A stretch of 64,000 nt of DNA, from assembly GCA_000002445.1 (NCBI GenBank), contig CM000207.1:480001-544000 (forward strand), given 5' to 3'. Both the position numbers and the translations under genes were made by a program. Source of the stretch: Trypanosoma brucei (taxonomy: Eukaryota). Each line of letters starts with the position of its first letter. Position 1 is the stretch's first letter. Shown in pieces: positions 11,638 through 64,000 of this stretch. Under the pieces are notes generated by a model. It saw nothing but the letters and a program-made list of their open reading frames with translations, did not search any database and was not told where the DNA came from.

Positions 11638-11675
<38 letters not shown>

Positions 11676-32845: not shown

Positions 32846-33080
32846 CCCTTCAAGAGTTTCGTAGGACTGTATATATGGGTCACTTAAATACGACCTCTAC
32901 GAAAACAACTTGGACACGGGACAAAACAAAAAACAAAGAGCAAAGAAAGAAAGAAAGAGGAGAACCAAGAGGGAAAAGGAGCGGGTGAATGAAGTGATGA
33001 ATTGATTGAATTGAAGGATGACAGCAAACACGCAATAATAGTGAGTGCAGCATACAACAAAATGAATAAATTGAGAAGGG
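32761..33080. repeat. About 320-bp direct repeat, copy 2 (see 29881-30200)
   Basis: Read directly from the sequence. Confidence 0.85.
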
Positions 33081-42176: not shown

Positions 42177-43916
42177 CTATCCATCAACGTCCTCCCCTTC
42201 CACTGATTCCGTCGTTCCACCAGTTAGAGAATGGTAGAAGGCACAAACTGTTGGGAAGGCGCAACGCTCTAGCAACGCCTGGAGTTCCTCCTTAGGGGTG
42301 CTCTTATCGTGCTCCGTAGTGAACGACGCCTCCAGTGGGTAACCCTCAAAAGTTAGGTTGGTGAAATTCTCTTTCGGTAATCTGAGTGTCGCAGATGCGT
42401 CCTCCTTAAAAGCAGCGTCCAGATATTCACGGTGCTCCTCATTATCAAGCACTTCCTGCCACTTATCTCCAGTGAAAAATATGTGCAGATCGGAGTACAC
42501 TATGTTCTCAATCCGGCGGCGCTTCTCCAGATACAGTTTGTCACGACCAGCCTTCTCCAAGCAGCGGCGCCGCCACACCGTCCTTTCGTGTCGACGATCC
42601 ACATCCGTGAGGAAGGCATCAAGTTGCCGCATCTCCTCCTCATCATCTTCGGTGAACAACTCCTTCTTGCTGAGCTCCTCCATGCGTAACTGCAGTTCGC
42701 GCTTCTCCTGGTCATCCCGTTCCTCGGCAGCGAAGAGAGCCTCAAGTTCGTCAATGTCGTACAGGTCGTTGACGGTGCGAACTGTCTGCTGCATCTTCAG
42801 TACTTCTTCAGGTTGTAGTTGAACATAGACGGGAATCTCCTTACCCAGGAGCGTCTTGCTTTCCTTCGGCCCAAAAACAAGTAAAACGCTGTCGAGTGAA
42901 ACAATATCACTCACAACGCGACCGTTCGTTGTGCGTTGTACGTAGCATCCTTCAACATTGATAGGTTCCTCTTCATCATTTAGTAGATTAAGTGGTTCTT
43001 CACCAATCAAAGCCTGCTTCTTTTCGGAAATTTGCACCCCTAACATAGCAATCTTCCCACGCAGTCCGTTGACCTCGGACAGCAGCGCAGCTATTCGGTC
43101 ATGTTTCACAACCAATCGATCAGCGACGCGTTCCTCCGCCTCCCGAGCTCTTGAACACGCCATCTGCACATTCAGCCACCTCCTAATAACAACTGGAAGT
43201 GGAGCACCGCGCAACAATTTAGGGAATGAGTCACTCTTCCCTCTACGTTCTTTCAGCGATTCGGCGGGGACCAACGCAAGCTCGTTCTTTATCTTCTTCC
43301 GTTGCAGTTTCGACAGCGGTGCGACCGTGCAGTCAAGTTCCATTATCCGCCCAACAAAATCACTTTGACGCATGACAATCTGCATGCTTTCCCAACTTCC
43401 ATTATGATCCTCTTGTAGGGCAATCATGAGCGCGCGGACAAGTGAAAACAGTTCCTCAGAAGGATTGTTTATATTCCTAATAATCCTCCAACTGCGCGCG
43501 GGTACTTGTTCAATCGCGGCGCGAACTTGATCAAGCTCCACCATTTGCTGACGAGTGAACGCCGCTGCAATGGCCTGTTTTTCTTGAGTTACCTCACGGG
43601 CACGGCAGAGCCGTTCAGAAGAACGATCCTCATCCTCCACCAGCTGCTGGTATTGCTGTTGGAGCGCTTTCAGCTCGTTCAGCCCATCAAGACGATCCTG
43701 CTGCACCGCAAGTTCACCCAGTTTTTCGGCATACGGTTCAAACCCACCAGGCACGGCATCGACACGATCGAACAATTCGACACGAACGTGCTGACTTGTG
43801 GGCAGTCCGATAACACGAGCAAGAGTATTGCTCCACTCATAATCACCGCCAATCCGTTCCAAGCAAATGTAGTCACTTACATTGACCTCCAAACACGATC
43901 TGTTCATTCCCGTCAT
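42177..43916 (-). CDS. hypothetical coiled-coil protein, copy 2 (579 aa). It is C-terminally truncated or replaced relative to copy 1.
   Basis: Matches copy 1 at offset 2733 bp. The ORF ends ...SLTGGTTESVEGEDVDG at the duplication junction. Confidence 0.65.
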   Translation of the reverse strand: MTGMNRSCLEVNVSDYICLERIGGDYEWSNTLARVIGLPTSQHVRVELFDRVDAVPGGFEPYAEKLGELAVQQDRLDGLNELKALQQQYQQLVEDEDRSSERLCRAREVTQEKQAIAAAFTRQQMVELDQVRAAIEQVPARSWRIIRNINNPSEELFSLVRALMIALQEDHNGSWESMQIVMRQSDFVGRIMELDCTVAPLSKLQRKKIKNELALVPAESLKERRGKSDSFPKLLRGAPLPVVIRRWLNVQMACSRAREAEERVADRLVVKHDRIAALLSEVNGLRGKIAMLGVQISEKKQALIGEEPLNLLNDEEEPINVEGCYVQRTTNGRVVSDIVSLDSVLLVFGPKESKTLLGKEIPVYVQLQPEEVLKMQQTVRTVNDLYDIDELEALFAAEERDDQEKRELQLRMEELSKKELFTEDDEEEMRQLDAFLTDVDRRHERTVWRRRCLEKAGRDKLYLEKRRRIENIVYSDLHIFFTGDKWQEVLDNEEHREYLDAAFKEDASATLRLPKENFTNLTFEGYPLEASFTTEHDKSTPKEELQALLERCAFPTVCAFYHSLTGGTTESVEGEDVDG

Positions 43917-44529
43917 TTACCTCAATACTCGCGTATGGTTTACTCCACGTTGACACGCGTGGTCACTACCCTCGCAGCCACGTGACGCGCACGAGGAGTT
44001 TTAACAATAAAAACTTGATAACTCTCTCCTCTGCTACTTACACTCTCAAGTAAAAAATTAACACAAACTACTTCCTACCTATTACAGTCAGTGATATGCT
44101 TAAAAAGATTAATACCTTTATTCTCTTTTCCTCTTGTCCTCAGGTTTACAGGAAAATACGAAAGGAATCAATCAATCAATCAACATATAAAGAGGATCAG
44201 CATCAACACGCATGCAACAACATGATCATCCACGAAAAAACATCACCAAAATCACGAGCAGCCGCAGCTACAATACACACACACAAACACACAGATGCGC
44301 AAAAACGTACACCGATACCACCTTTCTATATATGTCATAAAACAAGCAGCAACAAAAAAGCAACAGAAAAGAAACAAACGCACACAAACACACAGAAATT
44401 TAAAAATGTTAAAAAACAAATCCACATAAAAAAAAGCAACAATATATATGCAAAACAGCACAATCAGCACCAACGTACAGAAGCAATATAAAATATACAA
44501 ACAACAAAAGCTACACACAAAAAGTCAAT
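42209..44529. repeat. tandem segmental duplication, unit 2
   Basis: See unit 1. Its upstream boundary (44529) coincides with the stop codon of the giant repeat gene. Confidence 0.85.
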
Positions 44530-47500
44530 AAAGCATCCACACAGCAGTGTATGGACACTCGTGGAGACTCTCATCAATATCATCCTTCTTTAGGTTGTGT
44601 GGTGGGGTTATGGTAAATTCAAGTTTTAGCATTTCCTCGCTGTAACTCACCACCAAGTCCTGCACCTGTTCCTCATTAAGATGCAACTGAGCAGCCGTTT
44701 CTTTGGTAAAGGCACTTACGACATCAGGTTTCCTCTTCTCCAAAACATAATCCCAGTCCTCACCCTCAAACCCAACATAGTGTTTCGTCACCGTTCCTGT
44801 TGCAGAAGATGAATCCTTCATCATAGCCGCACGTGCAGCGGAAGCACGTGGCACATATAGTGACCACATCTCAGAGAAGGGGCATGCAGCAAGGGTACTT
44901 AATATATCAGCATCATTTAATGAGCACCCAATGACTTTATAATCAATCAACAGACTTCCGAGTCGGCAATCAATGATAACCGCCTGCTGTGGAGAGACAC
45001 CGAGAACACGCGCAGCGTCATTACGGAATGCGTTCTCCAACCCTTCACGATCACCACTAAGCACAAGATCCCAATCATCTCCCTCAAATTTCTCTGTCAA
45101 TACCGATGACTCCCGTGGTCTAAGTTCATACAGCATCCACACAGCAGTGTATGGACATTCATTAAGACGCTCATCAATATCATCCTTCTTTAAGTTGTGT
45201 GGTGGGGTTATGGTAAATTCAAGTTTTAGCATTTCCTCGCTGTAACTCAGCACCAAGTCCTGCACCTGTTCCTCATTAAGATGCAACTGAGCAGCCGTTT
45301 CTTTGGTAAAGGCACTTACGACATCAGGTTTCCTCTTCTCCAAAACATAATCCCAGTCCTCACCCTCAAACCCAACATAGTGTTTCGTCACCGTTTCTGT
45401 TGCAGAAGATGAATCCTTCATCATAGCCGCACGTGCAGCGGAAGCACGTGGCACATATAGTGACCACACTTCAGAGAAGGGACATGCAGCAAGGGTACTT
45501 AATATATCAGCATCATTTAATGAGCACCCAATGACTTTATAATCAATCAACAGACTTCCGAGTCGGCAATCAATGATAACCACCTGCTGTGGAGAGACAC
45601 CGAGAACACGCGCAGCGTCATTACGGAATGCGTTCTCCAACCCTTCACGATCACCACTAAGCACAAGATCCCAATCATCTCCCTCAAATTTTTCTGTCAA
45701 TACCGATGACTCCCGTGGTCTAGATTCATACAGCATCCACACAGCAGTGTATGGACATTCATTAAGACGCTCATCAATATCATCCTTCTTTAGGTTGTGT
45801 GGTAGGGTTATGGTAAATTCAAGTTTTAGCATTTCCTCGCTGTAACTCACCACCAAGTCCTGCACCTGTTCCTCATTAAGTTGCAACTGAGCAGCCGTTT
45901 CTTTGGTAAAGGCACTTACGACATCAGGTTTCCTCTTCTCCAAAACATAATCCCAGTCCTCACCCTCAAATTCCACGTGGTGTTGCGTAACCGTTTCTGT
46001 TGCAGAAGATGAATCCTTCATCATAGCCGCACGTGCAGCGGAAGCACGTGGCACATATAGTGACCACATCTCAGAGAAGGGACATGCAGCAAGGGTACTT
46101 AATATATCAGCATCATTTAATGAGCTCCCAATGACTTTATAATCAATCAACAGACTTCCGAGTCGGCAATCAATGATAACCACCTGCTGTGGAGAGACAC
46201 CGAGAACACGCGCAGCGTCATTACGGAATGCGTTCTCCAACCCTTCACGATCACCACTAAGCACAAGATCCCAATCATCTCCCTCAAATTTTTCTGTCAA
46301 TACCGATGACTCCCGTGGTCTAGATTCATACAGCATCCACACAGCAGTGTATGGACATTCATTAAGACGCTCATCAATATCATCCTTCTTTAGGTTGTGT
46401 GGTAGGGTTATGGTAAATTCAAGTTTTAGCATTTCCTCGCTGTAACTCACCACCAAGTCCTGCACCTGTTCCTCATTAAGTTGCAACTGAGCAGCCGTTT
46501 CTTTGGTAAAGGCACTTACGACATCAGGTTTCCTCTTCTCCAAAACATAATCCCAGTCCTCACCCTCAAATTCCACGTGGTGTTGCGTAACCGTTTCTGT
46601 TGCAGAAGATGAATCCTCCATCATAGCCGCACGTGCAGCGGAAGCACGTGGCACATATAGTGACCACACCTCAGAGAAGGGACATGCAGCAAGGGTACTT
46701 AATATATCAGCATCATTTAATGAGCTCCCAATGACTTTATAATCAATTAACAGACTTCCGAGTCGGCAATCAATGATAACCACCTGCTGTGGAGAGACAC
46801 CGAGAACACGCGCAGCGTCATTACGGAATGCGTTCTCCAACCCTTCACGATCACCACTAAGCACAAGATCCCAGTCATCTCCCTCAAATTTTTCTGTCAA
46901 TACCGATGACTCCCGTGGTCTAGATTCATACAGCATCCACACAGCAGTGTATGGACATTCATTAAGACGCTCATCAATATCATCCTTCTTTAGGTTGTGT
47001 GGTAGGGTTATGGTAAATTCAAGTTTTAGCATTTCCTCGCTGTAACTCACCACCAAGTCCTGCACCTGTTCCTCATTAAGTTGCAACTGAGCAGCCGTTT
47101 CTTTGGTAAAGGCACTTACGACATCAGGTTTCCTCTTCTCCAAAACATAATCCCAGTCCTCACCCTCAAATTCCACGTGGTGTTGCGTAACCGTTTCTGT
47201 TGCAGAAGATGAATCCTCCATCATAGCCGCACGTGCAGCGGAAGCACGTGGCACATATAGTGACCACATCTCAGAGAAGGGACATGCAGCAAGGGTACTT
47301 AATATATCAGCATCATTTAATGAGCTCCCAATGACTTTATAATCAATCAACAGACTTCCGAGTCGGCAATCAATGATAACCACCTGCTGTGGAGAGACAC
47401 CGAGAACACGCGCAGCGTCATTACGGAATGCGTTCTCCAACCCTTCACGATCACCACTAAGCACAAGATCCCAATCATCTCCCTCAAATTTTTCTGTCAG

Positions 47501-50500
47501 TACCGATGACTCCCGTGGTCTAGATTCATACAGCATCCACACAGCAGTGTATGGACATTCATTAAGACGCTCATCAATATCATCCTTCTTTAGGTTGTGT
47601 GGTAGGGTTATGGTAAATTCAAGTTTTAGCATTTCCTCGCTGTAACTCACCACCAAGTCCTGCACCTGTTCCTCATTAAGTTGCAACTGAGCAGCCGTTT
47701 CTTTGGTAAAGGCACTTACGACATCAGGTTTCCTCTTCTCCAAAACATAATCCCAGTCCTCACCCTCAAATTCCACGTGGTGTTGCGTAACCGTTTCTGT
47801 TGCAGAAGATGAATCCTTCATCATAGCCGCACGTGCAGCGGAAGCACGTGGCACATATAGTGACCACACCTCAGAGAAGGGACATGCAGCAAGGGTACTT
47901 AATATATCAGCATCATTTAATGAGCACCCAATGACTTTATAATCAATCAACAGACTTCCGAGTCGGCAATCAATGATAACCACCTGCTGTGGAGAGACAC
48001 CGAGAACACGCGCAGCGTCATTACGGAATGCGTTCTCCAACCCTTCACGATCACCACTAAGCACAAGATCCCAATCATCTCCCTCAAATTTCTCTGTCAA
48101 TACCGATGACTCCCGTGGTCTAGATTCATACAGCATCCACACAGCAGTGTATGGACATTCATTAAGACGCTCATCAACATCATCCTTCTTTAGGTTGTGT
48201 GGTAGGGTTATGGTAAATTCAAGTTTTAGCATTTCCTCGCTGTAACTCACCACCAAGTCCTGCACCTGTTCCTCATTAAGTTGCAACTGAGCAGCCGTTT
48301 CTTTGGTAAAGGCACTTACGACATCAGGTTTCCTCTTCTCCAAAACATAATCCCAGTCCTCACCCTCAAATTCCACGTGGTGTTGCGTAACCGTTTCTGT
48401 TGCAGAAGATGAATCCTCCATCATAGCCGCACGTGCAGCGGAAGCACGTGGCACATATAGTGACCACACCTCAGAGAAGGGACATGCAGCAAGGGTACTT
48501 AATATATCAGCATCATTTAATGAGCACCCAATGACTTTATAATCAATCAACAGACTTCCGAGTCGGCAATCAATGATAACCACCTGCTGTGGAGAGACAC
48601 CGAGAGCACACGCAGCGTCATTACGGAATGCGTTCTCCAACCCTTCACGATCACCACTAAGCACAAGATCCCAGTCATCTCCCTCAAATTTTTCTGTCAA
48701 TACCGATGACTCCCGTGGTCTAGGTTCATACAGCATCCACACAGCAGTGTATGGACATTCGTGGAGACGCTCATCAATATCATCCTTCTGTAGGTTGTGT
48801 GGTAGGGTTATGGTAAATTCAAGTTTTAGCATTTCCTCGCTGTAACTCACCACCAAGTCCTGCACCTGTTCCTCATTAAGTTGCAACTGAGCAGCCGTTT
48901 CTTTGGTAAAGGCACTTACGACATCAGGTTTCCTCTTCTCCAAAACATAATCCCAGTCCTCACCCTCAAATTCCACGTGGTGTTGCGTAACCGTTTCTGT
49001 TGCAGAAGATGAATCCTCCATCATAGCCGCACGTGCAGCGGAAGCACGTGGCACATATAGTGACCACATCTCAGAGAAGGGACATGCAGCAAGGGTACTT
49101 AATATATCAGCATCATTTAATGAGCACCCAATGACTTTATAATCAATCAACAGACTTCCGAGTCGGCAATCAATGATAACCACCTGCTGTGGAGAGACAC
49201 CGAGAGCACGCGCAGCGTCATTACGGAATGCGTTCTCCAACCCTTCACGATCACCACTAAGCACAAGATCCCAATCATCTCCCTCAAATTTCTCTGTCAA
49301 TACCGATGACTCCCGTGGTCTAGATTCATACAGCATCCACACAGCAGTGTATGGACATTCATTAAGACGCTCATCAATATCATCCTTCTTTAGGTTGTGT
49401 GGTAGGGTTATGGTAAATTCAAGTTTTAGCATTTCCTCGCTGTAACTCACCACCAAGTCCTGCACCTGTTCCTCATTAAGTTGCAACTGAGCAGCCGTTT
49501 CTTTGGTAAAGGCACTTACGACATCAGGTTTCCTCTTCTCCAAAACATAATCCCAGTCCTCACCCTCAAATTCCACGTGGTGTTGCGTAACCGTTTCTGT
49601 TGCAGAAGATGAATCCTCCATCATAGCCGCACGTGCAGCGGAAGCACGTGGCACATATAGTGACCACACCTCAGAGAAGGGACATGCAGCAAGGGTACTT
49701 AATATATCAGCATCATTTAATGAGCACCCAATGACTTTATAATCAATCAACAGACTTCCGAGTCGGCAATCAATGATAACCACCTGCTGTGGAGAGACAC
49801 CGAGAGCACACGCAGCGTCATTACGGAATGCGTTCTCCAACCCTTCACGATCACCACTAAGCACAAGATCCCAATCATCTCCCTCAAATTTCTCTGTCAA
49901 TACCGATGACTCCCGTGGTCTAGATTCATACAGCATCCACACAGCAGTGTATGGACATTCATTAAGACGCTCATCAACATCATCCTTCTTTAGGTTGTGT
50001 GGTAGGGTTATGGTAAATTCAAGTTTTAGCATTTCCTCGCTGTAACTCACCACCAAGTCCTGCACCTGTTCCTCATTAAGTTGCAACTGAGCAGCCGTTT
50101 CTTTGGTAAAGGCACTTACGACATCAGGTTTCCTCTTCTCCAAAACATAATCCCAGTCCTCACCCTCAAATTCCACGTGGTGTTGCGTAACCGTTTCTGT
50201 TGCAGAAGATGAATCCTCCATCATAGCCGCACGTGCAGCGGAAGCACGTGGCACATATAGTGACCACACCTCAGAGAAGGGACATGCAGCAAGGGTACTT
50301 AATATATCAGCATCATTTAATGAGCACCCAGTGACTTTATAATCAATCAACAGACTTCCGAGTCGGCAATCAATGATAACCACCTGCTGTGGAGAGACAC
50401 CGAGAACACGCGCAGCGTCATTACGGAATGCGTTCTCCAACCCTTCACGATCACCACTAAGCACAAGATCCCAATCATCTCCCTCAAATTTTTCTGTCAG

Positions 50501-56500: not shown

Positions 56501-59500
56501 TACCGATGACTCCCGTGGTCTAGATTCATACAGCATCCACACAGCAGTGTATGGACATTCATTAAGACGCTCATCAATATCATCCTTCTTTAGGTTGTGT
56601 GGTGGGGTTATGGTAAATTCAAGTTTTAGCATTTCCTCGCTGTAACTCACCACCAAGTCCTGCACCTGTTCCTCATTAAGTTGCAACTGAGCAGCCGTTT
56701 CTTTGGTAAAGGCACTTACGACATCAGGTTTCCTCTTCTCCAAAACATAATCCCAGTCCTCACCCTCAAATTCCACGTGGTGTTGCGTAACCGTTTCTGT
56801 TGCAGAAGATGAATCCTTCATCATAGCCGCACGTGCAGCGGAAGCACGTGGCACATATAGTGACCACATCTCAGAGAAGGGACATGCAGCAAGGGTACTT
56901 AATATATCAGCATCATTTAATGAGCACCCAATGACTTTATAATCAATCAACAGACTTCCGAGTCGGCAATCAATGATAACCACCTGCTGTGGAGAGACAC
57001 CGAGAACACGCGCAGCGTCATTACGGAATGCGTTCTCCAACCCTTCACGATCACCACTAAGCACAAGATCCCAGTCATCTCCCTCAAATTTTTCTGTCAA
57101 TACCGATGACTCCCGTGGTCTAGATTCATACAGCATCCACACAGCAGTGTATGGACATTCATTAAGACGCTCATCAACATCATCCTTCTTTAGGTTGTGT
57201 GGTAGGGTTATGGTAAATTCAAGTTTTAGCATTTCCTCGCTGTAACTCACCACCAAGTCCTGCACCTGTTCCTCATTAAGTTGCAACTGAGCAGCCGTTT
57301 CTTTGGTAAAGGCACTTACAACATCAGGTTTCCTCTTCTCCAAAACATAATCCCAGTCCTCACCCTCAAATTCCATGTGGTGTTGCGTAACCGTTCCTGT
57401 TGCAGAAGATGAATCCTTCATCATAGCCGCACGTGCAGCGGAAGCACGTGGCACATATAGTGACCACATCTCAGAGAAGGGACATGCAGCAAGGGTACTT
57501 AATATATCAGCATCATTTAATGAGCTCCCAATGACTTTATAATCAATCAACAGACTTCCGAGTCGGCAATCAATGATAACCACCTGCTGTGGAGAGACAC
57601 CGAGAACACGCGCAGCGTCATTACGGAATGCGTTCTCCAACCCTTCACGATCACCACTAAGCACAAGATCCCAGTCATCTCCCTCAAATTTCTCTGTCAA
57701 TACCGATGACTCCCGTGGTCTAGATTCATACAGCATCCACACAGCAGTGTATGGACATTCATTAAGACGCTCATCAATATCATCCTTCTTTAGGTTGTGT
57801 GGTAGGGTTATGGTAAATTCAAGTTTTAGCATTTCCTCGCTGTAACTCACCACCAAGTCCTGCACCTGTTCCTCATTAAGTTGCAACTGAGCAGCCGTTT
57901 CTTTGGTAAAGGCACTTACGACATCAGGTTTCCTCTTCTCCAAAACATAATCCCAGTCCTCACCCTCAAATTCCACGTGGTGTTGCGTAACCGTTTCTGT
58001 TGCAGAAGATGAATCCTCCATCATAGCCGCACGTGCAGCGGAAGCACGTGGCACATATAGTGACCACATCTCAGAGAAGGGGCATGCAGCAAGGGTACTT
58101 AATATATCAGCATCATTTAATGAGCACCCAATGACTTTATAATCAATCAACAGACTTCCGAGTCGGCAATCAATGATAACCACCTGCTGTGGAGAGACAC
58201 CGAGAACACGCGCAGCGTCATTACGGAATGCGTTCTCCAACCCTTCACGATCACCACTAAGCACAAGATCCCAATCATCTCCCTCAAATTTCTCTGTCAA
58301 TACCGATGACTCCCGTGGTCTAGGTTCATACAGCATCCACACAGCAGTGTATGGACATTCGTGGAGACGCTCATCAATATCATCCTTCTTTAGGTTGTGT
58401 GGTGGGGTTATGGTAAATTCAAGTTTTAGCATTTCCTCGCTGTAACTCACCACCAAGTCCTGCACCTGTTCCTCATTAAGTTGCAACTGAGCAGCCGTTT
58501 CTTTGGTAAAGGCACTTACGACATCAGGTTTCCTCTTCTCCAAAACATAATCCCAGTCCTCACCCTCAAATTCCACGTGGTGTTGCGTAACCGTTTCTGT
58601 TGCAGAAGATGAATCCTCCATCATAGCCGCACGTGCAGCGGAAGCACGTGGCACATATAGTGACCACATCTCAGAGAAGGGACATGCAGCAAGGTTACTT
58701 AATATATCAGCATCATTTAATGAGCACCCAATGACTTTATAATCAATCAACAGACTTCCGAGTCGGCAATCAATGATAACCACCTGCTGTGGAGAGACAC
58801 CGAGAACACGCGCAGCGTCATTACGGAATGCGTTCTCCAACCCTTCACGATCACCACTAAGCACAAGATCCCAATCATCTCCCTCAAATTTTTCTGTCAG
58901 TACCGATGACTCCCGTGGTCTAGATTCATACAGCATCCACACAGCAGTGTATGGACATTCATTAAGACGCTCATCAACATCATCCTTCTTTAGGTTGTGT
59001 GGTAGGGTTATGGTAAATTCAAGTTTTAGCATTTCCTCGCTGTAACTCACCACCAAGTCCTGCACCTGTTCCTCATTAAGTTGCAACTGAGCAGCCGTTT
59101 CTTTGGTAAAGGCACTTACGACATCAGGTTTCCTCTTCTCCAAAACATAATCCCAGTCCTCACCCTCAAATTCCACGTGGTGTTGCGTAACCGTTTCTGT
59201 TGCAGAAGATGAATCCTCCATCATAGCCGCACGTGCAGCGGAAGCACGTGGCACATATAGTGACCACACTTCAGAGAAGGGACATGCAGCAAGGGTACTT
59301 AATATATCAGCATCATTTAATGAGCACCCAATGACTTTATAATCAATCAACAGACTTCCGAGTCGGCAATCAATGATAACCACCTGCTGTGGAGAGACAC
59401 CGAGAGCACGCGCAGCGTCATTACGGAATGCGTTCTCCAACCCTTCACGATCACCACTAAGCACAAGATCCCAGTCATCTCCCTCAAATTTCTCTGTCAA

Positions 59501-62500
59501 TACCGATGACTCCCGTGGTCTAGATTCATACAGCATCCACACAGCAGTGTATGGACATTCATTAAGACGCTCATCAATATCATCCTTCTTTAGGTTGTGT
59601 GGTGGGGTTATGGTAAATTCAAGTTTTAGCATTTCCTCGCTGTAACTCACCACCAAGTCCTGCACCTGTTCCTCATTAAGTTGCAACTGAGCAGCCGTTT
59701 CTTTGGTAAAGGCACTTACGACATCAGGTTTCCTCTTCTCCAAAACATAATCCCAGTCCTCACCCTCAAATTCCACGTGGTGTTGCGTAACCGTTTCTGT
59801 TGCAGAAGATGAATCCTTCATCATAGCCGCACGTGCAGCGGAAGCACGTGGCACATATAGTGACCACATCTCAGAGAAGGGACATGCAGCAAGGGTACTT
59901 AATATATCAGCATCATTTAATGAGCACCCAATGACTTTATAATCAATCAACAGACTTCCGAGTCGGCAATCAATGATAACCACCTGCTGTGGAGAGACAC
60001 CGAGAGCACACGCAGCGTCATTACGGAATGCGTTCTCCAACCCTTCACGATCACCACTAAGCACAAGATCCCAATCATCTCCCTCAAATTTCTCTGTCAA
60101 TACCGATGACTCCCGTGGTCTAGATTCATACAGCATCCACACAGCAGTGTATGGACATTCATTAAGACGCTCATCAATATCATCCTTCTTTAGGTTGTGT
60201 GGTAGGGTTATGGTAAATTCAAGTTTTAGCATTTCCTCGCTGTAACTCACCACCAAGTCCTGCACCTGTTCCTCATTAAGTTGCAACTGAGCAGCCGTTT
60301 CTTTGGTAAAGGCACTTACGACATCAGGTTTCCTCTTCTCCAAAACATAATCCCAGTCCTCACCCTCAAATTCCATGTGGTGTTGCGTAACCGTTTCTGT
60401 TGCAGAAGATGAATCCTCCATCATAGCCGCACGTGCAGCGGAAGCACGTGGCACATATAGTGACCACACCTCAGAGAAGGGACATGCAGCAAGGGTACTT
60501 AATATATCAGCATCATTTAATGAGCACCCAATGACTTTATAATCAATCAACAGACTTCCGAGTCGGCAATCAATGATAACCACCTGCTGTGGAGAGACAC
60601 CGAGAACACGCGCAGCGTCATTACGGAATGCGTTCTCCAACCCTTCACGATCACCACTAAGCACAAGATCCCAATCATCTCCCTCAAATTTTTCTGTCAG
60701 TACCGATGACTCCCGTGGTCTAGATTCATACAGCATCCACACAGCAGTGTATGGACATTCATTAAGACGCTCATCAATATCATCCTTCTTTAGGTTGTGT
60801 GGTAGGGTTATGGTAAATTCAAGTTTTAGCATTTCCTCGCTGTAACTCACCACCAAGTCCTGCACCTGTTCCTCATTAAGTTGCAACTGAGCAGCCGTTT
60901 CTTTGGTAAAGGCACTTACGACATCAGGTTTCCTCTTCTCCAAAACATAATCCCAGTCCTCACCCTCAAATTCCACGTGGTGTTGCGTAACCGTTTCTGT
61001 TGCAGAAGATGAATCCTTCATCATAGCCGCACGTGCAGCGGAAGCACGTGGCACATATAGTGACCACACTTCAGAGAAGGGACATGCAGCAAGGGTACTT
61101 AATATATCAGCATCATTTAATGAGCACCCAATGACTTTATAATCAATCAACAGACTTCCGAGTCGGCAATCAATGATAACCACCTGCTGTGGAGAGACAC
61201 CGAGAGCACGCGCAGCGTCATTACGGAATGCGTTCTCCAACCCTTCACGATCACCACTAAGCACAAGATCCCAGTCATCTCCCTCAAATTTCTCTGTCAA
61301 TACCGATGACTCCCGTGGTCTAGATTCATACAGCATCCACACAGCAGTGTATGGACATTCATTAAGACGCTCATCAATATCATCCTTCTTTAGGTTGTGT
61401 GGTAGGGTTATGGTAAATTCAAGTTTTAGCATTTCCTCGCTGTAACTCACCACCAAGTCCTGCACCTGTTCCTCATTAAGTTGCAACTGAGCAGCCGTTT
61501 CTTTGGTAAAGGCACTTACGACATCAGGTTTCCTCTTCTCCAAAACATAATCCCAGTCCTCACCCTCAAATTCCACGTGGTGTTGCGTAACCGTTTCTGT
61601 TGCAGAAGATGAATCCTCCATCATAGCCGCACGTGCAGCGGAAGCACGTGGCACATATAGTGACCACATCTCAGAGAAGGGACATGCAGCAAGGGTACTT
61701 AATATATCAGCATCATTTAATGAGCACCCAATGACTTTATAATCAATCAACAGACTTCCGAGTCGGCAATCAATGATAACCACCTGCTGTGGAGAGACAC
61801 CGAGAGCACGCGCAGCGTCATTACGGAATGCGTTCTCCAACCCTTCACGATCACCACTAAGCACAAGATCCCAATCATCTCCCTCAAATTTTTCTGTCAA
61901 TACCGATGACTCCCGTGGTCTAGATTCATACAGCATCCACACAGCAGTGTATGGACATTCATTAAGACGCTCATCAACATCATCCTTCTTTAGGTTGTGT
62001 GGTAGGGTTATGGTAAATTCAAGTTTTAGCATTTCCTCGCTGTAACTCACCACCAAGTCCTGCACCTGTTCCTCATTAAGTTGCAACTGAGCAGCCGTTT
62101 CTTTGGTAAAGGCACTTACGACATCAGGTTTCCTCTTCTCCAAAACATAATCCCAGTCCTCACCCTCAAATTCCACGTGGTGTTGCGTAACCGTTTCTGT
62201 TGCAGAAGATGAATCCTCCATCATAGCCGCACGTGCAGCGGAAGCACGTGGCACATATAGTGACCACACTTCAGAGAAGGGACATGCAGCAAGGGTACTT
62301 AATATATCAGCATCATTTAATGAGCACCCAATGACTTTATAATCAATCAACAGACTTCCGAGTCGGCAATCAATGATAACCACCTGCTGTGGAGAGACAC
62401 CGAGAACACGCGCAGCGTCATTACGGAATGCGTTCTCCAACCCTTCACGATCACCACTAAGCACAAGATCCCAGTCATCTCCCTCAAATTTTTCTGTCAA

Positions 62501-64000
62501 TACCGATGACTCCCGTGGTCTAGATTCATACAGCATCCACACAGCAGTGTATGGACATTCATTAAGACGCTCATCAATATCATCCTTCTTTAGGTTGTGT
62601 GGTGGGGTTATGGTAAATTCAAGTTTTAGCATTTCCTCGCTGTAACTCACCACCAAGTCCTGCACCTGTTCCTCATTAAGTTGCAACTGAGCAGCCGTTT
62701 CTTTGGTAAAGGCACTTACGACATCAGGTTTCCTCTTCTCCAAAACATAATCCCAGTCCTCACCCTCAAATTCCACGTGGTGTTGCGTAACCGTTCCTGT
62801 TGCAGAAGATGAATCCTTCATCATAGCCGCACGTGCAGCGGAAGCACGTGGCACATATAGTGACCACATCTCAGAGAAGGGACATGCAGCAAGGGTACTT
62901 AATATATCAGCATCATTTAATGAGCACCCAATGACTTTATAATCAATCAACAGACTTCCGAGTCGGCAATCAATGATAACCACCTGCTGTGGAGAGACAC
63001 CGAGAACACGCGCAGCGTCATTACGGAATGCGTTCTCCAACCCTTCACGATCACCACTAAGCACAAGATCCCAGTCATCTCCCTCAAATTTTTCTGTCAA
63101 TACCGATGACTCCCGTGGTCTAGATTCATACAGCATCCACACAGCAGTGTATGGACATTCATTAAGACGCTCATCAACATCATCCTTCTTTAGGTTGTGT
63201 GGTGGGGTTATGGTAAATTCAAGTTTTAGCATTTCCTCGCTGTAACTCACCACCAAGTCCTGCACCTGTTCCTCATTAAGTTGCAACTGAGCAGCCGTTT
63301 CTTTGGTAAAGGCACTTACGACATCAGGTTTCCTCTTCTCCAAAACATAATCCCAGTCCTCACCCTCAAATTCCACGTGGTGTTGCGTAACCGTTTCTGT
63401 TGCAGAAGATGAATCCTTCATCATAGCCGCACGTGCAGCGGAAGCACGTGGCACATATAGTGACCACATCTCAGAGAAGGGGCATGCAGCAAGGGTACTT
63501 AATATATCAGCATCATTTAATGAGCACCCAATGACTTTATAATCAATCAACAGACTTCCGAGTCGGCAATCAATGATAACCACCTGCTGTGGAGAGACAC
63601 CGAGAACACGCGCAGCGTCATTACGGAATGCGTTCTCCAACCCTTCACGATCACCACTAAGCACAAGATCCCAATCATCTCCCTCAAATTTTTCTGTCAA
63701 TACCGATGACTCCCGTGGTCTAGATTCATACAGCATCCACACAGCAGTGTATGGACATTCATTAAGACGCTCATCAATATCATCCTTCTTTAGGTTGTGT
63801 GGTGGGGTTATGGTAAATTCAAGTTTTAGCATTTCCTCGCTGTAACTCACCACCAAGTCCTGCACCTGTTCCTCATTAAGTTGCAACTGAGCAGCCGTTT
63901 CTTTGGTAAAGGCACTTACGACATCAGGTTTCCTCTTCTCCAAAACATAATCCCAGTCCTCACCCTCAAATTCCATGTGGTGTTGCGTAACCGTTCCTGT
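44525..64000 (-). CDS. giant repetitive protein, partial. At least 6483 aa lie in the window and the 5' end is beyond it. It is built of 200-aa tandem units.
   Basis: A single uninterrupted minus-strand ORF runs across more than 19.4 kb. There are 32 units such as ...VEFEGEDWDYVLEKRKPDVV...ECPYTAVWMLYESRPRESSVLTEKFEGDDWDLVLSGDREG...CPFSEMWSLYVPRASAARAAMMKDSSSATETVTQHH. The stop codon is at 44525-44527. Confidence 0.8.
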   Translation of the reverse strand, partial: TGTVTQHHMEFEGEDWDYVLEKRKPDVVSAFTKETAAQLQLNEEQVQDLVVSYSEEMLKLEFTITPPHNLKKDDIDERLNECPYTAVWMLYESRPRESSVLTEKFEGDDWDLVLSGDREGLENAFRNDAARVLGVSPQQVVIIDCRLGSLLIDYKVIGCSLNDADILSTLAACPFSEMWSLYVPRASAARAAMMKDSSSATETVTQHHVEFEGEDWDYVLEKRKPDVVSAFTKETAAQLQLNEEQVQDLVVSYSEEMLKLEFTITPPHNLKKDDVDERLNECPYTAVWMLYESRPRESSVLTEKFEGDDWDLVLSGDREGLENAFRNDAARVLGVSPQQVVIIDCRLGSLLIDYKVIGCSLNDADILSTLAACPFSEMWSLYVPRASAARAAMMKDSSSATGTVTQHHVEFEGEDWDYVLEKRKPDVVSAFTKETAAQLQLNEEQVQDLVVSYSEEMLKLEFTITPPHNLKKDDIDERLNECPYTAVWMLYESRPRESSVLTEKFEGDDWDLVLSGDREGLENAFRNDAARVLGVSPQQVVIIDCRLGSLLIDYKVIGCSLNDADILSTLAACPFSEVWSLYVPRASAARAAMMEDSSSATETVTQHHVEFEGEDWDYVLEKRKPDVVSAFTKETAAQLQLNEEQVQDLVVSYSEEMLKLEFTITLPHNLKKDDVDERLNECPYTAVWMLYESRPRESSVLTEKFEGDDWDLVLSGDREGLENAFRNDAARALGVSPQQVVIIDCRLGSLLIDYKVIGCSLNDADILSTLAACPFSEMWSLYVPRASAARAAMMEDSSSATETVTQHHVEFEGEDWDYVLEKRKPDVVSAFTKETAAQLQLNEEQVQDLVVSYSEEMLKLEFTITLPHNLKKDDIDERLNECPYTAVWMLYESRPRESSVLTEKFEGDDWDLVLSGDREGLENAFRNDAARALGVSPQQVVIIDCRLGSLLIDYKVIGCSLNDADILSTLAACPFSEVWSLYVPRASAARAAMMKDSSSATETVTQHHVEFEGEDWDYVLEKRKPDVVSAFTKETAAQLQLNEEQVQDLVVSYSEEMLKLEFTITLPHNLKKDDIDERLNECPYTAVWMLYESRPRESSVLTEKFEGDDWDLVLSGDREGLENAFRNDAARVLGVSPQQVVIIDCRLGSLLIDYKVIGCSLNDADILSTLAACPFSEVWSLYVPRASAARAAMMEDSSSATETVTQHHMEFEGEDWDYVLEKRKPDVVSAFTKETAAQLQLNEEQVQDLVVSYSEEMLKLEFTITLPHNLKKDDIDERLNECPYTAVWMLYESRPRESSVLTEKFEGDDWDLVLSGDREGLENAFRNDAACALGVSPQQVVIIDCRLGSLLIDYKVIGCSLNDADILSTLAACPFSEMWSLYVPRASAARAAMMKDSSSATETVTQHHVEFEGEDWDYVLEKRKPDVVSAFTKETAAQLQLNEEQVQDLVVSYSEEMLKLEFTITPPHNLKKDDIDERLNECPYTAVWMLYESRPRESSVLTEKFEGDDWDLVLSGDREGLENAFRNDAARALGVSPQQVVIIDCRLGSLLIDYKVIGCSLNDADILSTLAACPFSEVWSLYVPRASAARAAMMEDSSSATETVTQHHVEFEGEDWDYVLEKRKPDVVSAFTKETAAQLQLNEEQVQDLVVSYSEEMLKLEFTITLPHNLKKDDVDERLNECPYTAVWMLYESRPRESSVLTEKFEGDDWDLVLSGDREGLENAFRNDAARVLGVSPQQVVIIDCRLGSLLIDYKVIGCSLNDADILSNLAACPFSEMWSLYVPRASAARAAMMEDSSSATETVTQHHVEFEGEDWDYVLEKRKPDVVSAFTKETAAQLQLNEEQVQDLVVSYSEEMLKLEFTITPPHNLKKDDIDERLHECPYTAVWMLYEPRPRESSVLTEKFEGDDWDLVLSGDREGLENAFRNDAARVLGVSPQQVVIIDCRLGSLLIDYKVIGCSLNDADILSTLAACPFSEMWSLYVPRASAARAAMMEDSSSATETVTQHHVEFEGEDWDYVLEKRKPDVVSAFTKETAAQLQLNEEQVQDLVVSYSEEMLKLEFTITLPHNLKKDDIDERLNECPYTAVWMLYESRPRESSVLTEKFEGDDWDLVLSGDREGLENAFRNDAARVLGVSPQQVVIIDCRLGSLLIDYKVIGSSLNDADILSTLAACPFSEMWSLYVPRASAARAAMMKDSSSATGTVTQHHMEFEGEDWDYVLEKRKPDVVSAFTKETAAQLQLNEEQVQDLVVSYSEEMLKLEFTITLPHNLKKDDVDERLNECPYTAVWMLYESRPRESSVLTEKFEGDDWDLVLSGDREGLENAFRNDAARVLGVSPQQVVIIDCRLGSLLIDYKVIGCSLNDADILSTLAACPFSEMWSLYVPRASAARAAMMKDSSSATETVTQHHVEFEGEDWDYVLEKRKPDVVSAFTKETAAQLQLNEEQVQDLVVSYSEEMLKLEFTITPPHNLKKDDIDERLNECPYTAVWMLYESRPRESSVLTEKFEGDDWDLVLSGDREGLENAFRNDAARVLGVSPQQVVIIDCRLGSLLIDYKVIGCSLNDADILSTLAACPFSEVWSLYVPRASAARAAMMKDSSSATETVTQHHVEFEGEDWDYVLEKRKPDVVSAFTKETAAQLQLNEEQVQDLVVSYSEEMLKLEFTITPPHNLKKDDIDERLNECPYTAVWMLYESRPRESSVLTEKFEGDDWDLVLSGDREGLENAFRNDAARVLGVSPQQVVIIDCRLGSLLIDYKVIGCSLNDADILSTLAACPFSEMWSLYVPRASAARAAMMKDSSSATETVTQHHVEFEGEDWDYVLEKRKPDVVSAFTKETAAQLQLNEEQVQDLVVSYSEEMLKLEFTITLPHNLKKDDIDERLNECPYTAVWMLYESRPRESSVLTEKFEGDDWDLVLSGDREGLENAFRNDAARVLGVSPQQVVIIDCRLGSLLIDYKVIGCSLNDSDILSTLAACPFSEMWSLYVPRASAARAAMMKDSSSATETVTQHHVEFEGEDWDYVLEKRKPDVVSAFTKETAAQLQLNEEQVQDLVVSYSEEMLKLEFTITPPHNLKKDDIDERLNECPYTAVWMLYESRPRESSVLTEKFEGDDWDLVLSGDREGLENAFRNDAARVLGVSPQQVVIIDCRLGSLLIDYKVIGCSLNDADILSTLAACPFSEVWSLYVPRASAARAAMMKDSSSATETVTQHHVEFEGEDWDYVLEKRKPDVVSAFTKETAAQLQLNEEQVQDLVVSYSEEMLKLEFTITPPHNLKKDDIDERLNECPYTAVWMLYESRPRESSVLTEKFEGDDWDLVLSGDREGLENAFRNDAARVLGVSPQQVVIIDCRLGSLLIDYKVIGRSLNDSDILSTLAACPFSEMWSLYVPRASAARAAMMKDSSSATGTVTKHYVGFEGEDWDYVLEKRKPDVVSAFTKETAAQLHLNEEQVQDLVLSYSEEMLKLEFTITPPHNLKKDDIDERLNECPYTAVWMLYESRPRESSVLTEKFEGDDWDLVLSGDREGLENAFRNDAARVLGVSPQQVVIIDCRLGSLLIDYKVIGCSLNDADILSTLAACPFSEMWSLYVPRASAARAAMMKDSSSATETVTQHHVEFEGEDWDYVLEKRKPDVVSAFTKETAAQLQLNEEQVQDLVVSYSEEMLKLEFTITPPHNLKKDDIDERLHECPYTAVWMLYEPRPRESSVLTEKFEGDDWDLVLSGDREGLENAFRNDAARVLGVSPQQVVIIDCRLGSLLIDYKVIGSSLNDADILSTLAACPFSEVWSLYVPRASAARAAMMEDSSSATETVTQHHVEFEGEDWDYVLEKRKPDVVSAFTKETAAQLQLNEEQVQDLVVSYSEEMLKLEFTITLPHNLKKDDIDERLNECPYTAVWMLYESRPRESSVLTEKFEGDDWDLVLSGDREGLENAFRNDAARVLGVSPQQVVIIDCRLGSLLIDYKVIGCSLNDADILSTLAACPFSEVWSLYVPRASAARAAMMKDSSSATETVTQHHVEFEGEDWDYVLEKRKPDVVSAFTKETAAQLQLNEEQVQDLVVSYSEEMLKLEFTITLPHNLKKDDVDERLNECPYTAVWMLYESRPRESSVLTEKFEGDDWDLVLSGDREGLENAFRNDAARALGVSPQQVVIIDCRLGSLLIDYKVIGCSLNDADILSTLAACPFSEVWSLYVPRASAARAAMMKDSSSATETVTQHHVEFEGEDWDYVLEKRKPDVVSAFTKETAAQLQLNEEQVQDLVVSYSEEMLKLEFTITLPHNLKKDDVDERLNECPYTAVWMLYESRPRESSVLTEKFEGDDWDLVLSGDREGLENAFRNDAARALGVSPQQVVIIDCRLGSLLIDYKVIGCSLNDADILSNLAACPFSEVWSLYVPRASAARAAMMEDSSSATETVTQHHVEFEGEDWDYVLEKRKPDVVSAFTKETAAQLQLNEEQVQDLVVSYSEEMLKLEFTITPPHNLKKDDIDERLHECPYTAVWMLYEPRPRESSVLTEKFEGDDWDLVLSGDREGLENAFRNDAARVLGVSPQQVVIIDCRLGSLLIDYKVTGCSLNDADILSTLAACPFSEVWSLYVPRASAARAAMMEDSSSATETVTQHHVEFEGEDWDYVLEKRKPDVVSAFTKETAAQLQLNEEQVQDLVVSYSEEMLKLEFTITLPHNLKKDDVDERLNECPYTAVWMLYESRPRESSVLTEKFEGDDWDLVLSGDREGLENAFRNDAACALGVSPQQVVIIDCRLGSLLIDYKVIGCSLNDADILSTLAACPFSEVWSLYVPRASAARAAMMEDSSSATETVTQHHVEFEGEDWDYVLEKRKPDVVSAFTKETAAQLQLNEEQVQDLVVSYSEEMLKLEFTITLPHNLKKDDIDERLNECPYTAVWMLYESRPRESSVLTEKFEGDDWDLVLSGDREGLENAFRNDAARALGVSPQQVVIIDCRLGSLLIDYKVIGCSLNDADILSTLAACPFSEMWSLYVPRASAARAAMMEDSSSATETVTQHHVEFEGEDWDYVLEKRKPDVVSAFTKETAAQLQLNEEQVQDLVVSYSEEMLKLEFTITLPHNLQKDDIDERLHECPYTAVWMLYEPRPRESSVLTEKFEGDDWDLVLSGDREGLENAFRNDAACALGVSPQQVVIIDCRLGSLLIDYKVIGCSLNDADILSTLAACPFSEVWSLYVPRASAARAAMMEDSSSATETVTQHHVEFEGEDWDYVLEKRKPDVVSAFTKETAAQLQLNEEQVQDLVVSYSEEMLKLEFTITLPHNLKKDDVDERLNECPYTAVWMLYESRPRESSVLTEKFEGDDWDLVLSGDREGLENAFRNDAARVLGVSPQQVVIIDCRLGSLLIDYKVIGCSLNDADILSTLAACPFSEVWSLYVPRASAARAAMMKDSSSATETVTQHHVEFEGEDWDYVLEKRKPDVVSAFTKETAAQLQLNEEQVQDLVVSYSEEMLKLEFTITLPHNLKKDDIDERLNECPYTAVWMLYESRPRESSVLTEKFEGDDWDLVLSGDREGLENAFRNDAARVLGVSPQQVVIIDCRLGSLLIDYKVIGSSLNDADILSTLAACPFSEMWSLYVPRASAARAAMMEDSSSATETVTQHHVEFEGEDWDYVLEKRKPDVVSAFTKETAAQLQLNEEQVQDLVVSYSEEMLKLEFTITLPHNLKKDDIDERLNECPYTAVWMLYESRPRESSVLTEKFEGDDWDLVLSGDREGLENAFRNDAARVLGVSPQQVVIIDCRLGSLLIDYKVIGSSLNDADILSTLAACPFSEVWSLYVPRASAARAAMMEDSSSATETVTQHHVEFEGEDWDYVLEKRKPDVVSAFTKETAAQLQLNEEQVQDLVVSYSEEMLKLEFTITLPHNLKKDDIDERLNECPYTAVWMLYESRPRESSVLTEKFEGDDWDLVLSGDREGLENAFRNDAARVLGVSPQQVVIIDCRLGSLLIDYKVIGSSLNDADILSTLAACPFSEMWSLYVPRASAARAAMMKDSSSATETVTQHHVEFEGEDWDYVLEKRKPDVVSAFTKETAAQLQLNEEQVQDLVVSYSEEMLKLEFTITLPHNLKKDDIDERLNECPYTAVWMLYESRPRESSVLTEKFEGDDWDLVLSGDREGLENAFRNDAARVLGVSPQQVVIIDCRLGSLLIDYKVIGCSLNDADILSTLAACPFSEVWSLYVPRASAARAAMMKDSSSATETVTKHYVGFEGEDWDYVLEKRKPDVVSAFTKETAAQLHLNEEQVQDLVLSYSEEMLKLEFTITPPHNLKKDDIDERLNECPYTAVWMLYELRPRESSVLTEKFEGDDWDLVLSGDREGLENAFRNDAARVLGVSPQQAVIIDCRLGSLLIDYKVIGCSLNDADILSTLAACPFSEMWSLYVPRASAARAAMMKDSSSATGTVTKHYVGFEGEDWDYVLEKRKPDVVSAFTKETAAQLHLNEEQVQDLVVSYSEEMLKLEFTITPPHNLKKDDIDESLHECPYTAVWMLY
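44530..64000. repeat. 600-bp tandem repeat array (at least 32.5 units) with exact period. It is coding, on the minus strand.
   Basis: The antisense 90-aa ORFs recur exactly every 600 bp from 44973 to 63573 with no indels. The units are about 98-99% identical at the nucleotide level. Confidence 0.95.

What the first reader, a model, noticed from the sequence alone, without database searches (positions are those of the whole stretch)
44525..64000. Giant gene made of at least 32 near-identical 600-bp units that runs off the window; a possible cytoskeletal mega-protein
A single ORF covers 19.4 kb of the window and is still open at the window edge. It is built from strictly 600-bp (200-aa) units. 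The size and organisation recall the giant repetitive cytoskeletal proteins of T. brucei. A posterior-end microtubule-capping protein, Gb4, has been reported with approximately 0.6-kb repeat units; this is recalled from the literature and not verified. The protein is acidic, cysteine-containing and lacks TM segments or a signal peptide in the visible part, which is consistent with a structural, cytoskeleton-associated role.
Basis: partly seen in the sequence, partly recalled or inferred. Interest (0 to 1): 0.7.

Follow-up and report, generated by a model that had tools for sequence, protein, structure and literature searches.

The report
Trypanosoma brucei GB4 giant repeat gene
The 19.5-kb run of near-identical 600-bp units is the 3' part of GB4, a giant cytoskeletal protein of Trypanosoma brucei known since 1993 to mark the posterior ends of the cell's microtubule corset, so the finding is real but already known.

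Summary
A minus-strand ORF runs from its stop codon at 44525 to the window edge. It holds 32 complete in-register 600-bp units plus a 276-bp terminal part-unit (273 coding bases plus the stop). Units match at 98.7% and have no indels.

The window is T. brucei chromosome 9 and the gene is GB4 (Tb09.160.1200 = Tb427tmp.160.1200). Published cloning and RACE primers for three neighbouring genes match exactly. The published GB4 repeat peptide VVIIDCRLGSLLIDYKVI occurs 30 times. The published anatomy also fits: 2,256 nt unique 5' sequence, then 37 x 600 nt running to the stop, 8,214 aa. About 5.2 kb of the gene, including the unique N-terminus, lies beyond the window.

- Each 200-aa unit is two diverged Pfam FAZ1_cons domains. 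AlphaFold2 gives pLDDT 96, and the fold is SEA/ferredoxin-like.
- The two genes just downstream are 94%-identical GB4-like paralogues.
- These paralogues, and the GB4 orthologues of other trypanosomatids, carry an N-terminal module homologous to the dynein stalk plus microtubule-binding domain (profile against PDB E 9e-21; TM 0.66-0.70).

The dynein-like module suggests how the family binds microtubules. I found no paper reporting it for GB4. Verdict: already known gene, low-to-moderate interest.

The parts
44525..64000 (-). 3' 19,476 nt of the GB4 ORF (Tb09.160.1200). Encodes 6,491 aa plus a stop at 44525-44527. The 5' end of the gene lies beyond base 64000.
   Evidence: Translation; periodicity; repeat peptide and published anatomy.
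44801..64000 (-). 32 complete 600-bp (200-aa) repeat units, phase counted from base 64000. Each unit encodes two FAZ1_cons domains: A at aa ~2-93 and B at aa ~100-185.
   Evidence: Units 97.3-99.8% identical to consensus. Pfam PF23398 E 2.7e-48, two stretches. AF2 model pLDDT 95.9 with two beta-alpha-beta-beta-alpha-alpha domains.
44525..44800 (-). Terminal part-unit: 273 coding bases (domain A only, ending ...AVWMLY) plus the stop codon at 44525-44527. It is the most diverged copy (93.5% to consensus).
44253..44524 (-). T-rich GB4 3' UTR. The extent is taken from the published ~272 nt and was not mapped here.
   Evidence: Sequence; UTR length from PMC5397161; the extent is an inference.
42177..43916 (-). 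GB4-like paralogue 1, 579 aa. Dynein-stalk/MTBD-like module at aa ~60-305 (43002-43739). One FAZ1_cons domain at aa 473-562 (42231-42500).
   Evidence: Pfam; 94% identity to paralogue 2; alignment A2 and PDB profile search.
38901..41183 (-). GB4-like paralogue 2, 760 aa from the first ATG. The annotated TREU927 protein P0093 starts at Met4 and has 757 aa. Dynein-stalk/MTBD-like module at aa ~60-305 (40269-41006). FAZ1_cons at aa 472-561 (39501-39770). Acidic C-terminal tail of ~190 aa.

Best explanation
The feature is the C-terminal four-fifths of GB4 (Tb09.160.1200), the largest annotated protein of Trypanosoma brucei (8,214 aa, ~928 kDa).

Shown in the literature: GB4 is expressed. It is detected by mass spectrometry and its mRNA is visualised by FISH. 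It sits on the subpellicular microtubule corset, concentrated at the posterior end where the microtubule plus ends lie, and epitope-tagged GB4 is used as a posterior-tip marker.

Shown here: the repeat region is not a low-complexity or coiled-coil repeat. It is a chain of compact globular domains. Each 200-aa unit holds two diverged FAZ1_cons domains with a beta-alpha-beta-beta-alpha-alpha, SEA/ferredoxin-like fold. The window shows 65 such domains; the full array would hold about 75. The array is strongly acidic (pI 4.4). It is kept almost identical by ongoing recombination or gene conversion between units: shared variants are mosaic, divergence does not grow with distance, and the edge units are the most diverged. 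Selection on unit variants is moderately purifying (pN/pS 0.46).

Inferred: microtubule binding is probably done by the unique N-terminal region, not by the acidic repeats. GB4 orthologues in other trypanosomatids, and the two GB4-like genes immediately downstream in this window, carry an N-terminal module homologous to the dynein stalk (CC1, six-helix microtubule-binding domain, CC2). On this reading GB4 is a non-motor MAP. A dynein-type MTBD anchors it to the lattice, and a very long string of SEA-like domains projects from it. That string may act as a spacer, cross-linker or scaffold at the posterior microtubule ends.
For: Identity:
- Repeat peptide from PMC2254594 found 30 times.
- Published anatomy of 2,256 nt unique 5' sequence plus 37 x 600 nt running to the stop.
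- Exact primer matches for Tb927.9.2220, Tb09.160.1090 and Tb09.160.1070.
- tRNA-Sec pair flanking the kinase gene as published.
- Downstream protein 100% identical to a TREU927 protein.
- Relatives annotated as Gb4 in T. vivax, T. cruzi marinkellei, T. grayi, Strigomonas and Angomonas.

Expression and localisation.

Homogenisation.

Dynein-like module:
- phmmer of paralogue 2 against PDB hits the stalk of a dynein heavy chain, E 2.3e-6.
- A 16-sequence profile hits cytoplasmic dynein stalk/MTBD at E 8.8e-21 and isolated MTBD constructs at ~1e-19. Of the 55 listed hits (E <= 1), all 46 with E < 0.04 come from dynein entries (one of them, 9fqr_Hl, is labelled 'Radial spoke head protein 9 homolog' but is 4,583 aa and aligns like the axonemal dynein chains); a few non-dynein chains appear only at E >= 0.04.
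- The AF2 model has the CC1 / helical bundle / CC2 topology.
- Foldseek top hit is 5ayh, 'entire dynein stalk region', TM 0.66/0.70.
- The same module lies at the N-termini of GB4 orthologues P0002, P0004, P0005, P0007, P0008, P0012, P0022 and P0026.
Against: - The N-terminal 752 aa of T. brucei GB4 itself lie outside the window and could not be fetched. Its dynein-like module is inferred from orthologues and paralogues only.
- No binding experiment links either the module or the repeats to tubulin.
- A dynein-type MTBD does not by itself explain enrichment at the posterior (plus) end.
- The T. brucei paralogues alone do not reach significance against Pfam PF12777. Only 7 of 16 family members hit it at E <= 1, best 1.2e-5.
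- The copy number of 37 comes from the reference assemblies and was not independently checked here.
Confidence: 0.9

Rival explanations
1. The acidic 200-aa repeats are themselves the microtubule-binding element, as shown for the repeats of MARP-1/2. The N-terminus would have another role.
For: PMC8625193 notes that negatively charged repeats are common in T. brucei cytoskeletal proteins and that MARP repeats bind microtubules directly. The FAZ1_cons domain occurs almost only in cytoskeleton-associated proteins: FAZ proteins, PFC20, FLAM8 and GB4.
Against: The same paper states that the function of the Gb4 repeats is unknown. The units are folded globular domains with pI 4.4, and the microtubule surface is also acidic. 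A bona fide MTBD homologue exists in the family.
Confidence: 0.15
2. The array is real, but its length in this sequence is an assembly estimate. The true copy number differs, or varies between alleles and strains.
For: Units are ~98.7% identical over 19 kb, which is hard to assemble from short or Sanger reads. The two published lengths, 8,214 aa in TREU927 and 24,645 nt in Lister 427, are identical. My own recollection, not checked here, is that the 427 assembly was scaffolded on the 927 reference; if so the two lengths are not independent.
Against: Every unit has its own combination of variants with no exact duplicates. FISH shows very long strings of repeat signal per mRNA. A protein of this annotation is detected by MS.
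Confidence: 0.2
3. It is another giant FAZ1_cons-containing protein (FAZ1, FLAM8, FAZ8 or similar), or a surface repeat antigen, rather than GB4.
For: The Pfam hit is named after FAZ1. PMC2254594 lists Gb4 among perfect-repeat proteins in a survey aimed at surface antigens.
Against: The gene ID, the repeat peptide and the chromosome 9 context all point to GB4. There is no TM segment. The literature places GB4 on the cytoskeleton.
Confidence: 0.02

Closest known systems
GB4 / Gb4 of Trypanosoma brucei (Tb09.160.1200; Rindisbacher et al. 1993, cited)
   Same: Same gene: 600-nt units running to the stop codon, the repeat peptide VVIIDCRLGSLLIDYKVI, and the chromosome 9 context.
   Different: Nothing differs. 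The window simply lacks the first ~5.2 kb: 2,256 nt of unique sequence plus about 4.9 units, if the gene encodes 8,214 aa.
Other FAZ1_cons (former Pfam-B 506) proteins of T. brucei: FAZ1, FAZ8, PFC20, FLAM8, Tb927.10.870
   Same: They share the ~93-aa FAZ1_cons domain and association with the cytoskeleton.
   Different: Going by the representative-library hits, which could not include T. brucei's own FAZ proteins, only GB4 shows the domain as a near-perfect tandem di-domain array of ~75 copies. The two downstream paralogues with one domain each do not appear in the 2015 description of nine proteins. PFC20 is Tb10.389.0100, not one of them.
Dynein heavy chain stalk and microtubule-binding domain (Pfam PF12777; PDB 5ayh, 3wuq, 3err, 6kjn, 6rzb)
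   Same: The N-terminal module of the GB4-like paralogues and of GB4 orthologues is homologous in sequence (E 8.8e-21) and in predicted fold (TM 0.66-0.70). It has CC1, a six-helix bundle and CC2.
   Different: There is no AAA+ ring, linker or tail. The proteins are 579-760 aa (paralogues), or the module is fused to FAZ1_cons arrays. Without a motor the stalk registry cannot be driven by ATP. PMC7394968 reported Phyre2 hints of dynein stalk or motor in FAZ1, FAZ2 and FAZ10, but not in GB4.
MUC16 and other tandem SEA-domain proteins
   Different: GB4 is cytoplasmic rather than an extracellular mucin. There is no sequence similarity and no Pfam SEA hit. The fold match is weak and the fold is common.
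MARP-1/2 and other acidic-repeat MAPs of T. brucei
   Same: High-molecular-mass, acidic, highly repetitive proteins of the subpellicular corset.
   Different: MARP repeats are short; my recollection is 38 aa, which was not checked here. They bind microtubules directly. GB4 units are 200-aa folded di-domains of unknown function.

Membership tests
T. brucei GB4 gene (Tb09.160.1200) | ORF 3' region made of tandem 600-nt repeats that continue to the stop codon | tested here: met
   32 full units plus a 276-bp part-unit (273 coding bases plus the stop at 44525-44527). Published description.
T. brucei GB4 gene (Tb09.160.1200) | Repeat contains the published peptide VVIIDCRLGSLLIDYKVI | tested here: met
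   30 exact copies in the visible ORF, against 35 in the full 8,214-aa protein.
T. brucei GB4 gene (Tb09.160.1200) | Position on chromosome 9 in the Tb09.160 block, same polycistron as Tb09.160.1070/1090 and TbSENP | tested here: met
   Exact matches of six published gene-specific primers and of the tRNA-Sec pair. All ORFs are on the minus strand.
T. brucei GB4 gene (Tb09.160.1200) | 2,256-nt unique 5' region; total 8,214 aa; 37 repeats | not testable with these tools
   This lies beyond base 64000. T. brucei GB4 itself was not returned by any protein search.
T. brucei GB4 gene (Tb09.160.1200) | [quoted passage not shown] | not testable with these tools
   Literature only. The L. mexicana orthologue is posterior-biased.
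Pfam PF23398 FAZ1_cons | Score above the gathering threshold (27.5 bits) | tested here: met
   Unit: 162.3 bits with two full-length stretches. Paralogues: 58 bits each.
SEA domain (fold level) | alpha/beta sandwich superimposable on solved SEA domains, plus sequence-family membership | tested here: inconclusive
Dynein stalk/MTBD module (PF12777-like), in the downstream paralogues and GB4 orthologues | Sequence homology to the dynein CC1-MTBD-CC2 region | tested here: met
   Profile against PDB E 8.8e-21; all 46 hits with E < 0.04 come from dynein entries, one of them mislabelled as a radial spoke protein. Single sequence E 2.3e-6. PF12777 is hit by 7 of 16 members at E <= 1, best 1.2e-5.
Dynein stalk/MTBD module (PF12777-like), in the downstream paralogues and GB4 orthologues | Antiparallel coiled coil capped by a small helical bundle | tested here: met
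   AF2 model: helix 2-77, short helices 81-165, helix 180-244, pLDDT 83.9. Foldseek 5ayh TM 0.66/0.70; 6rzb TMt 0.75.
Dynein heavy chain (the motor protein family) | AAA+ ring, linker and tail | tested here: not met
   The paralogues are 579 and 760 aa with no AAA or dynein motor Pfam hit. They are not dyneins; they only share the stalk module.
Dynein stalk/MTBD module in T. brucei GB4 itself | Module present in GB4 aa 1-752 | not testable with these tools
   The N-terminus is outside the window. Presence is inferred from the T. cruzi marinkellei Gb4 fragment P0008 (aa 80-200) and seven other orthologues.

The most novel reading that the evidence does not exclude
GB4 and its two tandem neighbours would form a kinetoplastid family of non-motor microtubule-associated proteins. 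The family would have borrowed the stalk and microtubule-binding domain of a dynein heavy chain and fused it to SEA-like FAZ1_cons domains. In GB4 the dynein-type MTBD would anchor the protein on the lattice. The ~75-domain acidic chain would act as a sub-micrometre spacer or scaffold at the posterior plus ends. This would answer the open question of what the Gb4 repeats and N-terminus do. None of the papers returned by the library searches describes this for GB4.
Probability: 0.4. Interest if true: 0.55.

Novelty: already known. Interest (0 to 1): 0.22.

Why it matters
The giant gene itself is a textbook-level known gene, so the main value is a clean confirmation: a sequence-only reader identified GB4 correctly.

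What could matter to trypanosome cell biologists is the anatomy added here.
- The repeats are folded SEA-like di-domains, not disordered acidic repeats.
- The GB4 family carries a dynein-stalk/MTBD homologue.

A 2021 paper still lists the function of the Gb4 repeats as unknown. A dynein-type MTBD in a non-motor protein gives a directly testable model for how GB4 and two uncharacterised neighbours attach to the subpellicular corset. The array is also a clear example of concerted evolution of a coding tandem repeat: 98.7% identity within T. brucei against 42-45% to the T. vivax and T. cruzi marinkellei units.

Tried and rejected
- TRF found nothing because its maximum period is 500. Autocorrelation in Python replaced it.
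- Exact look-ups of the window's neighbour proteins failed, partly because the annotated start of the 757-aa protein is Met4.
- The word-indexed protein search with one unit returned only an Angomonas protein.
- The last word-indexed search, with the N-terminal profile, was saturated by coiled-coil words and returned only a T. equiperdum fragment. As a result the T. brucei GB4 N-terminus could not be retrieved.
- No supplementary files with tagging primers or probe sequences were held for PMC13544905 or PMC5397161.
- I tested whether the downstream paralogues are PFC20. They are not: PFC20 is Tb10.389.0100.
- A higher-order repeat structure was rejected: divergence is flat with distance between units.
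- A transmembrane or surface-antigen reading was rejected.
- The afdb50 fold library was unavailable.
- One 'Gb4' hit in PMC4783070 was a DOI string, not the protein.

Full report
**1. Observation**

The feature is real and sits at the stated coordinates, on the minus strand.
- Reading 64000->44525 gives 6,491 sense codons and then a stop at 44525-44527. The frame is still open at the window edge.
- The ORF listing reports 44525..63976 only because it begins at the first in-frame ATG, which is an internal methionine.
- Self-identity is 98.7% at a lag of 600 nt and all its multiples, against about 27% at other lags.
- There are 32 complete 600-bp units (44801-64000) and a 276-bp terminal part-unit (273 coding bases plus the stop), with no indel anywhere.
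- TRF returned nothing because its longest period is 500.
- The visible protein is acidic: pI 4.4, with 37 D+E against 19 K+R per unit and 4 Cys per unit.
- It has no hydrophobic stretch that could span a membrane; the maximum KD19 is 1.38.

**2. Identity**

The window is Trypanosoma brucei chromosome 9 and the gene is GB4.
- Published cloning primers for TbSENP (Tb927.9.2220; PMC4530879) match exactly at both ends of ORF 4756-6990.
- RACE primers for Tb09.160.1090 and Tb09.160.1070 (PMC2943599) match exactly inside ORFs 26182-29196 and 24245-25348.
- Two identical tRNA-Sec genes flank that kinase gene, exactly as drawn in that paper.
- The 757-aa protein encoded at 38901-41183 is 100% identical to a T. 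brucei brucei TREU927 protein.
- For the giant gene itself, PMC2254594 lists 'Gb4, Tb09.160.1200, 8214 aa, 35 x VVIIDCRLGSLLIDYKVI'. This 18-mer occurs 30 times in the visible ORF.
- PMC5397161 describes GB4 (Tb427tmp.160.1200) as a 24,645-nt ORF with 2,256 nt of unique 5' sequence followed by 37 repeats of 600 nt up to the 3' end.
- If the gene here encodes 8,214 aa, the window lacks 1,723 aa: the 752-aa unique N-terminus and about 4.9 units, or about 5.2 kb.
- Relatives in other species are annotated as Gb4 but are only 42-45% identical or less.

**3. What is known**

[quoted passage not shown] 1993, as cited).
- PTP-tagged GB4 is used as a marker of old and nascent posterior ends.
- The L. 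mexicana orthologue LmxM.29.1950 decorates peripheral microtubules with a posterior bias.
- The 928-kDa protein is detected by mass spectrometry.
- Its mRNA is seen as long strings by single-molecule FISH.
- A 2021 paper states that the function of the Gb4 repeats is unknown.
- Sunter et al. 2015 noted that GB4 shares a Pfam-B domain with FAZ proteins, PFC20, FLAM8 and Tb927.10.870.

**4. Anatomy of the repeat**

- Each 200-aa unit consists of two copies of Pfam FAZ1_cons (PF23398; E 2.7e-48, two full-length stretches).
- The two copies are only about a quarter identical to each other. The di-domain is therefore old, while the array is young or homogenised.
- With a 39-sequence alignment of di-domain segments from relatives, AlphaFold2 gives a confident model: pLDDT 95.9, pTM 0.78. 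It has two beta-alpha-beta-beta-alpha-alpha domains and a helical linker.
- I take this as a fold resemblance, not membership.
- The window shows 65 such domains. The protein ends exactly at the end of an A domain (...AVWMLY*).

**5. Evolution of the array**

- The 32 full units carry 37 variable sites, 26 of which change the amino acid. All 32 are distinct at the DNA level, and they share variants in mosaic combinations.
- Mean pairwise difference is 7.8 per 600 nt and does not rise with distance between units. There is therefore no higher-order repeat. pN/pS is 0.46.
- The two 3'-most copies are the most diverged. Their 5' haplotype (...KHYVGF...) reappears in unit 18.
- This is the usual signature of unequal exchange or gene conversion, with the edges escaping homogenisation.
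- A T. vivax fragment has a 205-aa period and T. grayi a 313-aa period. Leishmaniinae orthologues are long non-periodic chains of diverged domains.

**6. The neighbours and a mechanistic lead**

- The two genes just downstream, 42177-43916 (579 aa) and 38901-41183 (760 aa), are 94% identical over 572 aa. Each has one FAZ1_cons domain near aa 472-562.
- Their N-terminal region is homologous to the dynein stalk and microtubule-binding domain.
  - phmmer of the 760-aa protein against the PDB hits the stalk of a dynein heavy chain (9y6s_7G) at E 2.3e-6.
  - A 16-sequence profile hits cytoplasmic dynein stalk/MTBD at E 8.8e-21 and isolated MTBD constructs (6kjn, 6kjo, 6kio) at ~1e-19. All 46 hits with E < 0.04 come from dynein entries (one is labelled as a radial spoke protein but is a 4,583-aa chain aligned like the dyneins); non-dynein chains appear only at E >= 0.04.
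  - The AF2 model (pLDDT 83.9) has a long helix, a bundle of short helices and a long return helix.
  - Foldseek ranks 'entire dynein stalk region' 5ayh first (TM 0.66/0.70). MTBD-on-microtubule structures such as 6rzb also match (TMt 0.75).
- The same module, with an even more dynein-like sequence (W.ELKSYR.PP..V..V.RAVMLLL.ED...W.QMQ.VLRD..FK.RI), sits at the N-termini of GB4 orthologues. These come from T. cruzi marinkellei, Porcisia and several unnamed assemblies.
- There is no AAA+ motor, so these are not dyneins.
- Phyre2 hints of dynein stalk or motor were published for FAZ1, FAZ2 and FAZ10. The searches I ran turned up no paper reporting this for GB4.

**7. How it most likely works**

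- Shown in the literature: GB4 is a microtubule-associated protein concentrated at the posterior plus ends.
- Shown here: the bulk of the protein is a chain of about 75 folded acidic domains.
- Inferred: attachment to the lattice is through a dynein-type MTBD in the unseen N-terminus. The domain chain projects as a long spacer or scaffold.
- The main rival is that the repeats themselves bind microtubules, as MARP repeats do. Their strong negative charge and globular nature argue against this, but it is not excluded.
- What gives plus-end specificity is unexplained.

**8. Verdict**

The gene is already known. The added value is the domain-level description and the dynein-stalk lead. That lead is only inferred for T. 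brucei GB4 itself, because the N-terminus lies outside the window and could not be retrieved.

Noticed in passing
window 42177-43916 (-) and 38901-41183 (-): Two 94%-identical GB4-like paralogues lie directly downstream of GB4. Each has an N-terminal module homologous to the dynein stalk plus microtubule-binding domain and one FAZ1_cons domain. Both are annotated only as conserved hypothetical proteins. They differ in short mosaic patches (aa ~145-152, 224-237, 265-290) and in the C-terminus: one ends right after the domain, the other has a ~190-aa acidic tail.
   Followed up: yes
window 25606-25693 (-) and 29443-29530 (-): Two identical selenocysteine tRNA genes sit inside perfect direct repeats of at least 300 nt, 3,837 bp apart. 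They flank the kinase gene Tb09.160.1090 within the protein-coding polycistron. These are the tRNA-Sec genes shown by Aeby et al. 2010 (PMC2943599) to be transcribed by RNA polymerase II.
   Followed up: yes
window 53201-53800 (unit 18) versus 44525-45400 (units 32-33): Unit 18, in the middle of the array, carries the same diverged 5' haplotype (12 linked changes, ...KHYVGF...) as the two 3'-terminal copies. This suggests a conversion or unequal-exchange event that moved an edge-type unit inward.
   Followed up: partly
window 29878-30177 and 32758-33057: A further 99%-identical direct repeat of at least 300 nt with 2,880-bp spacing, in the region of the small ORFs 30837-31433, 32261-32845 and 33726-34358. 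It looks like another local gene duplication in the same polycistron.
   Followed up: no
window 4756-6990 (-): A Ulp1/SENP SUMO protease gene. Published TbSENP (Tb927.9.2220) primers match exactly at its start and its last codons, which anchored the locus.
   Followed up: yes
window 2001-4000: An AT-rich stretch (GC 0.36 against ~0.47 elsewhere) with (AT)n and TATGTG-type microsatellites at 2226-2279 and 2693-2726. It is probably intergenic or UTR sequence.
   Followed up: no
whole window: Every long ORF that has a family match lies on the minus strand, and GC skew is negative throughout. This fits a single RNA polymerase II polycistronic unit. Other genes in it: SCO1/SenC (35916-37076), two protein kinases (26182-29196 and 9276-11867) and a methyltransferase (24245-25348).
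   Followed up: partly
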